IMG/VR virus record: IMGVR_UViG_640753022_000005
Span: 874 to 64,873 of that record
DNA: 64,000 nucleotides
Direction: 5' to 3' (one strand)
From: a virus
This document shows positions 1,484 through 60,133 of this stretch, piece after piece. The notes beneath the pieces are model-generated. The model saw only the letters and a program-made list of their open reading frames with translations, did not search any database and had not been told where the DNA came from. A program made the position numbers and the translations under genes. The stretch's first letter is position 1; every line of letters begins with the position of its first letter.

Positions 1484-2707
1484 CTATGGCCAATCCCAGT
1501 TAGTATATTTTTCTAGCATCGCTTTTATTTCAGCTGGAGCCAGAGTATCTACGATATTCGCACGGTAAGAATGCTGTTTCAGTACTTTCGCTGATGTAAA
1601 ATTATGAGGGATATATGGATCAAACTTACCTAAAGGAGCAAGCAAATCTATATCTGTGTTAATAGTCTTGAGCCAGGAAGCCAAAATCACTTTTGCACCG
1701 GTTTGCTCAATATAAGCTCTACCCGATTCTAAACTATAACCTTTCGTAGTTATATCATCTATTAAAAGGACTGTTTTCCCCGGCCCCAAAGGACTTTTTA
1801 CATATCTTCTGGTAGCGCTTCGCATAGGCTTATAATTCAAACGAATTGTGTTTAGCTGATTTAAAAAATCAATCGCCATCTTATTATTTCGTGCGGTTTG
1901 AGATTTTATTGCATCAGTGTGTCTAATAATTAAATCAAAAAGATAATTCTTTCTAAAACACTTCCCGAATATAGATATAGCCTCGTTCATAACTGGGTTA
2001 CCATATCCAGCCTTGTGTCCAGGATAGACGCTAACGTAATCTATTTTTTTGTGAACCCCACTGAAATACAAACTAGAAACTATCGCACCAATCCAAAAAT
2101 CAGGATGCCCCGTACCATGTTTAGCTGCATTTCTAGCATGTTGAGAGTATAAAGTATTTTCTTCTTTCATTGTACTGAATGGTGCTAGTGCATAAAAATT
2201 GAAATCACCATCATGTATTTCGTGGCACCAAAGATGAGAGCGAAGACAAAAAGTATCAATGAATCTTGCGATATCTTTCGGTGATGCAAATTCAAAACCA
2301 TAATCCGTTTTATTTTCCCACCACGTAGCTCTTAAGAATAATAACTCTCCATTAACTGCGGTTCTCATGTCATCGTCAGTCGAACCAATATATATTGTTT
2401 CGGTAGAGCTCCATCCTTTTAAATTCAATATATATTCTATTGACTCAGCACGAGGTCTGGGTGGAATGCTCTTATCATCCGCATAACAGATATAACTGAA
2501 CTCCCCCCATTTCTCCTTGAGAAAATCTTCAAGTTTACTAGTTTCATTATAAGTCCATTGTCGATTAGTATGTATTACAAAGTCTAACCCCTTAGACTTG
2601 AAATAATTTATTAGTTTATTAACCTCTGAGAATATTGCACGATCTAATTTACCATTAGGACAGATAGTACCTTCAACACTTAGAATAACGCCCTTTATTC
2701 TAGTCAT
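1484..2707 (-). CDS. shosT: ShosT-like toxin: degenerate HAD-fold N-terminus plus phosphoribosyltransferase domain
   Basis: VILSVEGT and IYIGSTDDD (HAD-like motifs), VLLIDDITTKGYSL (PRPP-binding loop); directly downstream of a DprA-like gene. Confidence 0.8.
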   Translation of the reverse strand: MTRIKGVILSVEGTICPNGKLDRAIFSEVNKLINYFKSKGLDFVIHTNRQWTYNETSKLEDFLKEKWGEFSYICYADDKSIPPRPRAESIEYILNLKGWSSTETIYIGSTDDDMRTAVNGELLFLRATWWENKTDYGFEFASPKDIARFIDTFCLRSHLWCHEIHDGDFNFYALAPFSTMKEENTLYSQHARNAAKHGTGHPDFWIGAIVSSLYFSGVHKKIDYVSVYPGHKAGYGNPVMNEAISIFGKCFRKNYLFDLIIRHTDAIKSQTARNNKMAIDFLNQLNTIRLNYKPMRSATRRYVKSPLGPGKTVLLIDDITTKGYSLESGRAYIEQTGAKVILASWLKTINTDIDLLAPLGKFDPYIPHNFTSAKVLKQHSYRANIVDTLAPAEIKAMLEKYTNWDWP

Positions 2708-2716
2708 TTTCGTTTC

Positions 2717-3694
2717 CTATAAATCCAAACTCTGTTGTGTAGGCAGTAAATTAAGTGATTTATTTACAGAAGTTATATAATTTATTGCCTCATTCAATTT
2801 TAATGGCACTTCAAAATTCTCTGCACTCTTATTTTTTTCCGAAAACTCCAATTCAGTTCTAACATGATAAGTTAATGGCAAGTATAAATTTACTATTTTT
2901 CGCCCGTATGTATATGCATAATCAACAGTGTGAGCCGTACCGCTTTTTATTTTCCATTCAACGGGAATCAAAACTTGGCATAAAGCAGCTTGTAACCTAT
3001 TCCTTCGAACAAAATTTTCCGCACTATAACTTTGTCGTGGTAAGTATTCAGTAATTACTGTCCCCCCGTGCTTAACTATTTGCTCTCGTAATATATTTGA
3101 GCCTTTAGGGTACTCATTAAATATACCATTCCCAAGCACGGCTACTGTAGGAATGCCATATCTTAAAGATTCACTATGCGCGATTTGATCAATACCATAG
3201 GCTAAACCACTTACTGTAATAAAACCTCTATTTAAAAGAGATGCAACAATCAGCTTTGTAATAAAAATGCCATCATCACTAGGCTTTCTTGTTCCGACTA
3301 TCGCAACAGACTTACAATTTAAGTTCTCGAGTGAACCCTCAACAAAGATCCAATGAGGCGGATCTGGGATTTCTTTAAAACAGCGAGGAAAAGATTCATG
3401 ATCAAAGAATACTAATTTAATGCCTCGTTTACTGAGCTCTCGTGCTTTCTCAATACCTTCGTTCCAAAGGTTTTGTTGCATGGTTTCCCACTCGTCACCT
3501 TTAGGCAAATGCACCCTAAGAAAGCCAGCTAACCTAGCACAATCGGAAGATTTAAGTATTTCTTTGAAACCAATTTTTGATTCAGCTATTTTTCGTAACG
3601 TCCAATAGCTTACGCCCTTAATAGATGTCAATGCAAGGAAGGCTACTGTTTCATTTCTCCAGAAATCAAATTGAGCATCAGTAGATTTTTCCAT
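2717..3694 (-). CDS. shosA: ShosA-like DprA/Smf (SLOG) protein
   Basis: VAIVGTRKPS, TVSGLAYGIDQIAH, VAVLGNG, FVRRNRLQAAL, SGTAHTVDYA are DprA core motifs. Confidence 0.85.
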   Translation of the reverse strand: MEKSTDAQFDFWRNETVAFLALTSIKGVSYWTLRKIAESKIGFKEILKSSDCARLAGFLRVHLPKGDEWETMQQNLWNEGIEKARELSKRGIKLVFFDHESFPRCFKEIPDPPHWIFVEGSLENLNCKSVAIVGTRKPSDDGIFITKLIVASLLNRGFITVSGLAYGIDQIAHSESLRYGIPTVAVLGNGIFNEYPKGSNILREQIVKHGGTVITEYLPRQSYSAENFVRRNRLQAALCQVLIPVEWKIKSGTAHTVDYAYTYGRKIVNLYLPLTYHVRTELEFSEKNKSAENFEVPLKLNEAINYITSVNKSLNLLPTQQSLDL

Positions 3695-8189: not shown

Positions 8190-8758
8190 GCCCGTACCTC
8201 CCGGCGCTGGCAGACAGGAAGCCGTCCGGCAAAACACAACACATAATCCGAAATGAGTTGCGCACGTGCAGCACGTTCAGTACCGGCATTAACACGAACA
8301 GCTAATGGCTGCGCACCGCAGTCAGCGCGGCGAACGGCAAGAAAGAGAAAGGTAAATTCAGGATGTGATGAAGCGAGGACTGTAGCCATGGTGGCAACCT
8401 CCGTTAGATAGCGGGTAACGCTACCACCGGAGTTTCCACGCTCACTGGTGGTAGCCCAGACGGGGGTGGAAATACCGGCTCTAACGGATACCGGCCTGAC
8501 CGAAGTCAGCCCCGCCTGAGCCACCATTACACGATAGCCACAACGGCAAAGAAACCGCAGTGCAAGTAACAGATGCGCAAAGGCAATGACACAAAAAAAG
8601 ACGCAAGGCGCGTCTGGTGTCGCCGTTAGATTATTCAGGTTTCCACGCCCGGCTGCCGATTTTGCGGCAGCGGGAAAACTATAGCCCGCGCATTCGTTCA
8701 GGCGCAAGGGTTTTATAACCGAATTTTGTTGATTGATTATGCAGTTACGTCCTGCCAT
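8186..8758 (-). CDS. ash: Ash / Icd-like host cell-division inhibitor
   Basis: GYSFPAAAKSAAGRG, VMVAQAG, TPVWATT, FTFLFLAVRRAD..TERAARAQL motifs. Confidence 0.8.
   Translation of the reverse strand: MAGRNCIINQQNSVIKPLRLNECAGYSFPAAAKSAAGRGNLNNLTATPDAPCVFFCVIAFAHLLLALRFLCRCGYRVMVAQAGLTSVRPVSVRAGISTPVWATTSERGNSGGSVTRYLTEVATMATVLASSHPEFTFLFLAVRRADCGAQPLAVRVNAGTERAARAQLISDYVLCFAGRLPVCQRREVRA
8447..8527 (-). ncRNA. C4 / P4 CI-like immunity RNA
   Basis: GGTGGCTCAGGCGGGG...CCCCGTCTGGGCTACCACC closing stem with internal CTGAC-TTCG-GTCAG hairpin, inside ash as in P4/P1. Confidence 0.6.
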
Positions 8759-43473: not shown

Positions 43474-43639
43474 TTCTCACACCTCCGATAATGGAAGTGC
43501 TGTGGTGTAGTTAGGAAAGGCCAGCGAGGCATCGGATGCGAGGGTTCATCTGTGATTGATTGCCTGTGGCCTAATACGAAAAAGGCCCGCCGAAGCGAGC
43601 CTTAAAATTTGTGTGAACTCATGATTCAATTCACGTTTT

Positions 43640-43658
43640 ATAAACCAAAATGGTTTAT
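43640..43658 (+). promoter_or_regulatory. Aca-type operator (perfect inverted repeat)
   Basis: ATAAACCA-AAA-TGGTTTAT overlapping a candidate -10 TATCAT, ~30 bp upstream of the acr start. Confidence 0.7.
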
Positions 43659-43688
43659 CATCTCTTCATCTTAACAAGAGGGAACATC

Positions 43689-43880
43689 ATGACTACTATC
43701 ACCATTAACACCTACTCACCGGATTCACGTTTCGACATGAGCAAAGAAGAAGCGAAAGAGTTTTTCGCTTTCGTTCAACGCAAGGCCGAGTCTCTCGGAT
43801 ATGACGTGGCGTTTGATGAAGCAATCTCAGTTGACGAAGAAAGCGAACGCTTCGTCGAAAAATGTTTCGCTGAGTTTTGA
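43689..43880 (+). CDS. acrIE8: AcrIE8-like anti-CRISPR protein (63 aa, acidic)
   Basis: MTTITINTY.P..RF.MS.EEAKEFFAFV...VDEESERFVEKCF matches AcrIE8 as I recall it; 15 D/E versus 7 K/R. Confidence 0.8.
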   Translation: MTTITINTYSPDSRFDMSKEEAKEFFAFVQRKAESLGYDVAFDEAISVDEESERFVEKCFAEF

Positions 43881-43889
43881 TCTGCGACT

Positions 43890-44045
43890 ATGCCGATCAA
43901 AGAGTACATTGAGAAGAACTTCCCGAGCCAGGCTGATTTCGCTTTAGCGTGTGGAGTGCTGCCTCAGCAGGTTACCAAGTGGATTAGCATGGGGTGCATA
44001 GTGCTCAACGGGAAGATGTACAGTCCGCGAAGAGATGTCCCCTAA
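43890..44045 (+). CDS. aca5: Aca5-like HTH repressor (51 aa, not in ORF track)
   Basis: MPIKEYIEKNFPSQADFALACGVLPQQVTKWISMGCIVLNGKMYSPRRDVP; directly after the acr gene. Confidence 0.7.
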   Translation: MPIKEYIEKNFPSQADFALACGVLPQQVTKWISMGCIVLNGKMYSPRRDVP

Positions 44046-44059
44046 CCCACCAAGTTAAG

Positions 44060-44090
44060 ATGTTCCCCGCTTCGGCGGGGATTTTGTTTT
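44060..44090 (+). terminator. Intrinsic terminator that also resembles a type I-E CRISPR repeat
   Basis: ATGTTCCCCGC-TTCG-GCGGGGAT-TTTGTTTT. Confidence 0.75.
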
Positions 44091-44104
44091 CTGCCGTCTG
44101 AATA

Positions 44105-44318
44105 TGTGTGGTGGCCGGTGCTGATCTCCGGCTTTGGCTTACCAACGTGGGCCGCATCGAATAATCGAATTGTCTTGCCGTAAGCCCAGAGATTACTCCC
44201 TTTCGCGCGCATCAGCCTGCGCATTCACCACAACAGGAAAGAGCACTGCATGACGTTTGCACGGACTTACGCCTTAGCGGGGCAGTCTCGGCGGTTCTCA
44301 ATGCTCTTACCTGTTGTG
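44105..44318 (-). ncRNA. Highly structured late-leader RNA region
   Basis: 20-bp stem 44229-44248 / 44299-44318 (18/20 complementary) plus further stems; non-coding. Confidence 0.4.
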
Positions 44319-44564
44319 CGCCCATTATTAATCACACCGGGCCAGTGCGCCGAATTTTTTAGCGGGGAATCGGAAGACCCCGTGATTTAAGGCTGTTAAG
44401 CCGCCATCAACATCAGATCATCGTTTGCATTTATCTTTGTGGTCAGTTTCTAAAAAGTCCGCAAAGTCGCTAACGTGACGAAAACTGGAAAGAGCACTGA
44501 CCCCATTGACCAGCCGGAACTATCCTGGATTACCAAGTCAATACCCTTACCGGATTTCGCCAAT

Positions 44565-60099: not shown

Positions 60100-60133
60100 C
60101 CCGCTTCGGCGGGTTTTTTATTGGAGCAAAGAT

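What the first reader, a model, noticed from the sequence alone, without database searches (positions are those of the whole stretch)
44020..44090. acr-aca terminator doubles as a type I-E CRISPR repeat mimic (possible RNA anti-CRISPR)
Seen: ATGTTCCCCGC-TTCG-GCGGGGAT matches the I-E repeat GTGTTCCCCGC-GCCA-GCGGGGAT at 19 of 22 nt over repeat positions 2-23, with the mismatches in the loop. It lies 15 nt after the aca5 stop, on the transcript of a I-E-specific Acr. Exactly 32 nt (I-E spacer length) upstream is ACAGTCCG, 5/8 identical to the crRNA 5' handle ATAAACCG. Established: Cas6e binds and cuts at the base of this stem, and solitary repeat units can act as RNA anti-CRISPRs (Racrs). Inference: the mRNA 3' end could sequester Cas6e/Cascade, giving combined protein and RNA inhibition of one system. 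Caveats: the native 3' handle is replaced by a U-tract, C(UUCG)G is a generic terminator loop, and the handle-like octamer encodes the conserved YSPR of Aca5, so coincidence is plausible.
Basis: partly seen in the sequence, partly recalled or inferred. Interest (0 to 1): 0.65.

Follow-up and report, generated by a model that had tools for sequence, protein, structure and literature searches.

The report
Orphaned CRISPR-repeat terminator after anti-CRISPR genes
The stop signal at the end of this Cronobacter prophage's anti-CRISPR operon is not a chance look-alike of a CRISPR repeat: it is the leftover last repeat of a phage-borne imitation CRISPR array that sister prophages carry in the same slot, but here it most likely works only as a terminator.

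Summary
In detail: 19/22 match to the I-E repeat, behind acrIE8-aca5 of a Cronobacter prophage. The likeness is inherited, not chance. Sister prophages fill the same holin-Q slot with a DUF1456-like gene plus a 2-3-repeat I-E mini-array; one internal repeat matches the host repeat 26/26. The last unit of that array is this same hairpin and U-tract (76 nt at 96%, 23 of 23 Cronobacter loci). The arrangement recurs in 5 of 6 distant lineages, and one guide copies its host's CreR guide, so the arrays look Cracr-like. The acr cassette most likely replaced the gene and guides and kept the last unit as its terminator. The proposed 61-nt crRNA mimic is not supported: no upstream repeat could make the 5' handle, and the octamer varies at synonymous sites. 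An RNA anti-CRISPR role stays possible (about 20%). Against it: the hairpin is lost or altered in many acrIE8 loci and fails SRUFinder criteria, and the host system has a CreR-like feedback element that should buffer sequestration. No Cas6e test exists.

The parts
44060..44088 (+). Orphan terminal pseudo-repeat of a type I-E mini-array, fused with an intrinsic terminator (stem 44064-44070 / 44075-44081, UUCG loop; a Cas6e cut, if any, would fall between 44080 and 44081)
   Evidence: 19/22 to repeat; identical to last array unit in sister prophages; fold and terminator call
44082..44090 (+). U-tract that replaces the repeat's 8-nt handle
   Evidence: Sequence; same replacement in terminal units of arrays from other genera
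44046..44059 (+). 14-nt 3' untranslated stretch; 44048-44056 is probably a remnant of the 3' end of the array's last guide
   Evidence: Local match to the end of the 42-nt guide, shuffle p 0.009-0.04 for five related guides, p 0.99 for an unrelated guide; noticed after the fact, weak
44062..44132 (+). Segment shared with the DUF1456-array allele (hairpin plus downstream flank)
   Evidence: 71 nt at 97% with L085; 44057-44132 at 96% with L170; read junction at 44062
43602..44061 (+). Exchangeable cassette: acrIE8-aca5 with promoter here (460 nt), DUF1456-like gene plus array guides in sister prophages (455 nt in the common allele)
   Evidence: Joint 43601 to 44062 in contigs of public runs; blastn boundaries
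43689..43880 (+). acrIE8 homologue, 63 aa
   Evidence: PDB 9vx9 E 8e-22; AcrIE8 list of PMC7648647
43890..44045 (+). aca5, 51 aa
   Evidence: Identical to ABU78294.1 in the Aca5 list of PMC7648647
44020..44027 (+). Handle-like octamer; rejected as a handle, it is the Tyr-Ser-Pro codons of Aca5
   Evidence: Four variants among 32 loci, all synonymous; no upstream repeat
43640..43658 (+). 8-bp inverted repeat upstream of acrIE8, probable Aca5 operator
   Evidence: Sequence; inverted repeats are typical of aca promoters (PMC9410906); binding not tested

Best explanation
The hairpin is the intrinsic terminator of the acrIE8-aca5 transcript, and it is repeat-like by descent. Cronobacter lambdoid prophages keep an exchangeable counter-defence slot between the holin and Q. 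One allele is a DUF1456-like gene followed by a Cracr-like I-E mini-array whose last repeat has traded its handle for a U-tract and so ends the transcript. A recombination event replaced the gene and guides with acrIE8-aca5, crossing over just after the aca5 stop, and left the last unit behind. Shown: homology, shared junctions, array anatomy, patchy retention. Inferred: direction of the swap, termination in vivo, and that any Cas6e binding is now incidental and adds little to immunity suppression.
For: 23 of 23 Cronobacter DUF1456-like loci found by protein end in this hairpin; L168's middle repeat is 26/26 to the host repeat, bit score 52; 76 nt at 96% between window and L170; both alleles share junctions 43601/44062. 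Arrays with a repeat-plus-U-tract end follow the gene in 5 of 6 distant lineages, while acrIE8 loci at 60-68% identity and seven at 93-95% lack the hairpin, which gives the direction. In acr loci 9 of 32 have a changed stem or flank (three distinct variants), against 0 of 23 in arrays. Variable sites are 5/21 in the hairpin, 4/14 upstream and 10/27 downstream. Four other terminator-like hairpins of the window use the same core.
Against: 23 of 32 acr loci keep stem and flanks intact and the commonest change (C-G to U-G) keeps pairing, so mild constraint remains; that fits a terminator but also a Cas6e site. The loci are clonal and few, so the 9/32 versus 0/23 contrast rests on three events. Termination itself was not observed for this allele: the only raw-read run came from a strain without the acr cassette.
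Confidence: 0.68

Rival explanations
1. The orphan unit is kept as a working RNA anti-CRISPR. Cas6e binds the hairpin at the mRNA 3' end, Cas7 polymerises upstream without Cas5 or Cas8, and the dead-end complex drains Cascade parts while AcrIE8 blocks Cas11.
For: True repeat ancestry. Across 26 units the stem shows compensatory changes at 3 pairs and 96% pairing while the loop varies freely, so a UUCG loop need not exclude Cas6e. RacrIF1 works through the product upstream of the cut, with no 5' handle, and RacrIC1 lies 11 nt after acrIC5 on one transcript (PMC10651486). AcrIE8.1 binds Cas11, a different subunit (PMC12883894). The host genus has I-E systems with this repeat.
Against: Lost in 7 close and all distant acrIE8 loci; stem broken in L023. 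Fails SRUFinder thresholds. Only 14 untranslated nt lie upstream, so a Cas7 filament would overlap translated aca5 (inference). All three Cronobacter cas loci read carry a CreR-like element, and Liu et al. argue sequestration alone is compensated in such systems; their I-E array lost protection when the guide was mutated, and its last repeat was cut inefficiently.
Confidence: 0.2
2. Pure coincidence: a generic GC-rich C-UUCG-G phage terminator that happens to resemble the repeat and belongs to the slot's backbone.
For: The exact 20-mer occurs in 18 viral contigs (14 contexts) with no acr or array gene, mostly just after a gene; a looser pattern adds more. The same core is used at 60100, 54246, 43586 and 25649.
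Against: It sits in exact array register after near-perfect repeats in sister prophages and in other genera at other positions. The G before the stem is present in only 1 of the 14 unrelated contexts. A relaxed repeat pattern hit no ordinary terminator in five host-related chromosomes.
Confidence: 0.09
3. One reading: a 61-nt crRNA-like RNA (44020-44080) with its own 5' handle loads into Cascade.
For: Geometry is exact: 8 + 32 + 21 nt.
Against: No upstream repeat to be cut; octamer lacks the invariant handle T, varies synonymously in 15 of 32 loci and encodes the Aca5 YSP motif; the array's own last guide is 42 nt, so the 32-nt register is not inherited; no PAM-flanked 11-nt seed target in 1.08 Mb of loci held.
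Confidence: 0.03

Closest known systems
Cracr arrays, especially the Salmonella prophage type I-E array (Liu et al., bioRxiv 10.1101/2024.10.29.618823)
   Same: The sister allele is a prophage array of 2-3 degenerate I-E repeats with guide-like spacers; L118's guide is 17 nt identical to its own host's CreR guide and matches the casA upstream region behind an AAG PAM. An irregular last repeat is also reported there.
   Different: The window keeps only the last unit, with no guide. Cronobacter guides (30-47 nt) have no target found. The paper's text does not mention Cronobacter, DUF1456 or AcrIE proteins; its Table S2 could not be read.
Racrs / solitary repeat units: RacrIC1, RacrIE1, RacrIE2, RacrIF1 (Camara-Wilpert et al. 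2023, PMC10651486)
   Same: Single repeat-derived hairpin in a prophage, just downstream of an acr operon against the same subtype, on the same transcript.
   Different: Only 19/29 identity, handle replaced by a U-tract, far below SRUFinder thresholds; no activity shown; not a constant partner of the acr.
acrIE8-aca5 operons (Pinilla-Redondo et al. 2020, PMC7648647; structure PMC12883894)
   Same: Same genes, same host genus; the Aca5 is one of their listed sequences.
   Different: The repeat-derived 3' end is confined to part of the Cronobacter lineage.
Rho-independent terminators with a C-UUCG-G loop
   Same: 7-bp GC stem, UUCG loop, U-tract, 14 nt after a stop codon.
   Different: Descends from a CRISPR repeat and keeps the repeat's flanking bases.
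Host CreR mini-arrays between cas3 and cas8e (Shmakov et al., bioRxiv 10.1101/2023.03.03.530964)
   Same: Degenerate distal repeat; likely source of the phage arrays.
   Different: Host distal repeats seen here keep an A-rich handle remnant and a separate downstream hairpin; the phage unit fuses repeat and terminator.

Membership tests
Racr (solitary repeat unit) | At least 90% identity over at least 90% of a known repeat, bit score 41.1 or more (SRUFinder) | tested here: not met
   Best blastn-short hit 10 nt, 20.3 bits, against the two host repeat variants only, not the full 17,823-repeat set
Racr (solitary repeat unit) | Solitary, intergenic, no cas genes or other repeats nearby | tested here: met
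   No second repeat-like unit near it; next best match in the window 15/22; no cas gene among ORFs at 38-50 kb by inspection
Racr (solitary repeat unit) | Repeat matches the subtype of the host's CRISPR system | tested here: met
   Nearest host genomes carry I-E arrays; 3 of 7 genus genomes have cse1
Racr (solitary repeat unit) | Bound and cut by the cognate Cas6 | not testable with these tools
   Stem identical to the host repeat; loop and handle differ
Racr (solitary repeat unit) | RNA alone inhibits interference | not testable with these tools
   No assay available
Cracr (window allele) | Upstream pseudo-repeat that yields an 8-nt 5' handle | tested here: not met
   No stem before 44020; octamer lacks invariant T
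Cracr (window allele) | Guide with 9 or more PAM-proximal matches to a host CreR/CreA guide or target | tested here: not met
   No PAM-flanked match in cas loci or held loci
Cracr (sister array allele) | Two or more I-E pseudo-repeats with conserved stem and handles, without cas genes | tested here: met
Cracr (sister array allele) | Guide matches host CreR guide or cas promoter | tested here: inconclusive
   Met for L118 against its own host; not found for Cronobacter guides in three cas loci or seven genomes
Intrinsic terminator | GC-rich stem-loop followed at once by a U-tract after a stop codon | tested here: met
   (z -2.3 for the 51-nt stretch)
Intrinsic terminator | Transcript 3' ends map to the U-tract | tested here: inconclusive
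   Only raw-read run lacked the acr cassette; low, poorly stranded depth

The most novel reading that the evidence does not exclude
Phages have fused a Cas6e site with an intrinsic terminator into one portable 30-nt 3' end. It turns any transcript in this slot, a guide array or an acr mRNA, into a Cascade decoy, so that acrIE8 mRNA inhibits the same system by protein and by RNA. Such terminator-disguised Racrs would be invisible to repeat-identity searches.
Probability: 0.17. Interest if true: 0.68.

Novelty: new variant of a known kind. Interest (0 to 1): 0.43.

Why it matters
It shows a protein anti-CRISPR cassette and an RNA-based (Cracr-like) cassette being swapped in one prophage slot, with a repeat-derived terminator as the shared right-hand end. 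That explains the resemblance. It also points to a better target than the hairpin itself: a common, apparently undescribed DUF1456-like gene tied to I-E mini-arrays across several enterobacterial genera, usable as a search marker the way acrIF24 marks I-F Cracrs. If the orphan hairpin does bind Cas6e, current Racr counts miss a class of terminator-like decoys.

Tried and rejected
Starting view that this was pure coincidence (about 90%): dropped. Rfam: nothing at this place. Pfam does not name either gene. Targets for Cronobacter guides: seed searches in three cas loci, seven genus genomes and all held loci gave only chance-level hits, mostly in coding sequence; one 13/14 match behind AAC in G405 lies in no cas locus and was not pursued. 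Array not found in annotated phages, plasmids or E. coli genomes. Racr paper supplements held as text do not contain these sequences, but may be cut short; Cracr supplements are not held. RNA runs: three are contigs, which show presence only; the raw-read run lacks acrIE8-aca5, and its fall in presumed plus-strand depth past the hairpin (12.7 to 4.8 to 1.5) is too thin and poorly stranded to count. A first count of flank variation (29 of 43) was inflated by recombination and replaced. Fold of the DUF1456-like protein was confident (pLDDT 89) but had no match at E 0.001 or better; weak rows were XRE-type helix-turn-helix proteins.

Full report
Observation. The hairpin is at 44060-44088 on the plus strand. 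It matches the I-E repeat at 19 of 22 over positions 2-23 and is the best match in the window, the next being 15. It folds as a 7-bp stem with a UUCG loop, followed by a U-tract, and is called as a terminator. The octamer at 44020-44027 is 32 nt upstream and 5/8 to the handle. The upstream genes are acrIE8 (PDB 9vx9, E 8e-22) and aca5 (identical to the C. sakazakii ATCC BAA-894 entry in PMC7648647). The cassette lies antisense between a holin and a Q-like gene. The host is Cronobacter: protein names, closest phage ENT47670, and the flanking host gene at 97% to two genomes that carry I-E arrays with this repeat.

The case for coincidence looked strong at first. Four other terminator-like hairpins in the window share the 14-nt core. 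The exact 20-mer occurs in 36 viral contigs: 11 acr-aca loci, 18 unrelated contigs in 14 contexts, and 7 loci of a third kind. Sequence alone is therefore not diagnostic.

The third kind changed the reading. These are sister prophages with the same holin-Q slot, but filled by a 93-aa DUF1456-like gene and then two or three I-E pseudo-repeats separated by 30-47-nt spacers. Internal repeats keep handle-like ends, and the middle repeat of L168 is 26/26 identical to the host repeat, 52 bits. The last unit is the window's hairpin. All 23 Cronobacter loci fetched by protein, without regard to the hairpin, end this way. L170 matches window 44057-44132 at 96% and L085 matches 44062-44132 at 97%. Contigs of public runs hold both alleles with shared junctions at 43601 and 44062, 460 against 455 nt. 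Nine bases of the 14-nt untranslated stretch resemble the end of the array's last guide, weakly.

The array module is older than this lineage. Homologues at 47-63% identity are followed by arrays ending in a repeat with a U-tract in 5 of 6 lineages, including Pectobacterium and Enterobacter. Two of them lie near aca5-like genes. Of four such genomes tested, the three with arrays have cse1 and the one without does not. In L118 the guide is 17 nt identical to the CreR-like guide of its own host and matches the casA upstream region behind an AAG PAM, which meets the Cracr criterion of Liu et al.. Over 26 aligned units the stem pairs in 96% of cells with compensatory changes at three pairs, above all shuffles and slid controls for pairing and covariation, while the loop varies; the units are related, so this is support, not a probability. 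I found no target for the Cronobacter guides.

By contrast the hairpin is not native to acrIE8. It is absent from seven loci with Acr identity of 93-95%, from the Phytobacter locus, from the loci at 60-68% (15 read, one cut short), and from aca5 loci with other neighbours. So the acr cassette most likely moved in and kept the array's last unit. Among 32 acr loci that have it, 9 carry a changed flank or stem in three variants, one with two broken pairs, against none of 23 arrays. Its share of variable sites, 5/21, is not clearly below the flanks at 4/14 and 10/27. These loci are clonal, so this suggests relaxed constraint without proving it.

The 5' handle idea fails. A handle is made by Cas6e cutting an upstream repeat (PMC5965380), and none precedes 44020. 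The octamer has C where all 26 real units have T, takes four synonymous forms among 32 loci, and encodes Tyr-Ser-Pro of Aca5. The inherited last guide is 42 nt, not 32. A 5/8 match has chance 0.03-0.13.

A handle-free decoy role remains open. RacrIF1 inhibits through the RNA upstream of the cut, and RacrIC1 lies 11 nt after acrIC5 on one transcript (PMC10651486). Cas6e reads the stem's major groove and bases on both sides, and here the stem and the two bases after it equal the host repeat. Against this: the unit fails SRUFinder thresholds; only 14 untranslated bases lie upstream (inference on Cas7 loading); the three Cronobacter cas loci read carry a CreR-like element, which Liu et al. say compensates for simple sequestration; and in their I-E array the guide-mutated version gave no protection and the last repeat was cut poorly. 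RNA data could not settle termination or processing.

Verdict. Real feature, real repeat ancestry, most likely a working terminator and a relic repeat (0.68); a working Racr at about 0.2. It is not a member of the Racr or Cracr families by the tests run, though the sister allele works like a Cracr array. The fused repeat-terminator and the cassette swap are a variant of known kinds. The DUF1456-like gene with its array is the better lead; no paper held links DUF1456 with anti-CRISPR, and its fold has no clear solved relative.

Noticed in passing
L087:2001-2282 and array L087:2289-2388; L170, L166-L169, L117-L119, L171-L174: DUF1456-like 91-95-aa gene tightly linked to I-E mini-arrays; the exact protein is listed in 709 blocks of the collection and named in C. 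sakazakii ATCC BAA-894. Candidate Acr, autorepressor or marker gene for I-E Cracr arrays. Weak likeness to XRE helix-turn-helix proteins only.
   Followed up: partly
L118:1822-1852 versus L127:3364-3387: Prophage guide 17 nt identical to the CreR-like guide of its own host, with an AAG-flanked target upstream of casA: a clear Cracr candidate.
   Followed up: partly
L121:7864-7950; L144; L145: Host CreR-like element between cas3 and casA in three Cronobacter genomes, with a 25-nt guide matching the casA upstream region behind AAG in L121.
   Followed up: partly
L087, L086, L092, L166, L170 spacers: Three guide families recur and reshuffle among Cronobacter arrays with conserved 5' seeds and drifting 3' ends; targets unknown.
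   Followed up: partly
window 43640-43658: 8-bp inverted repeat before acrIE8, probable Aca5 operator; its half-site is 7/8 identical to the I-E handle, presumably by chance.
   Followed up: no
window 44108-44132: In raw reads of another strain, 72 first mates begin at 44108 on the plus strand, next to a conserved hairpin; may mark the end of a minus-strand small RNA. Several relatives carry an Ibs-type toxin gene further along this slot (L110, L113, L170).
   Followed up: no
window 44207-44480: Non-coding late-leader segment with 70-85% matches in about 500 phage records, including lytic phages; no Rfam match.
   Followed up: no
L119 (reverse) 661-1761; L117 (reverse) 421-1767 and 2698-3089: Small uncharacterised genes stacked with aca5-like genes and the DUF1456-array module; further Acr candidates.
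   Followed up: no
L061:7971-7999, L071, L073: Unrelated environmental phage with the same hairpin followed by a handle-like tail instead of a U-tract (21/29 to the repeat).
   Followed up: no
window 8444-8684: Rfam C4 antisense RNA, isrK and C4 target sites, part of a P4-like element.
   Followed up: no
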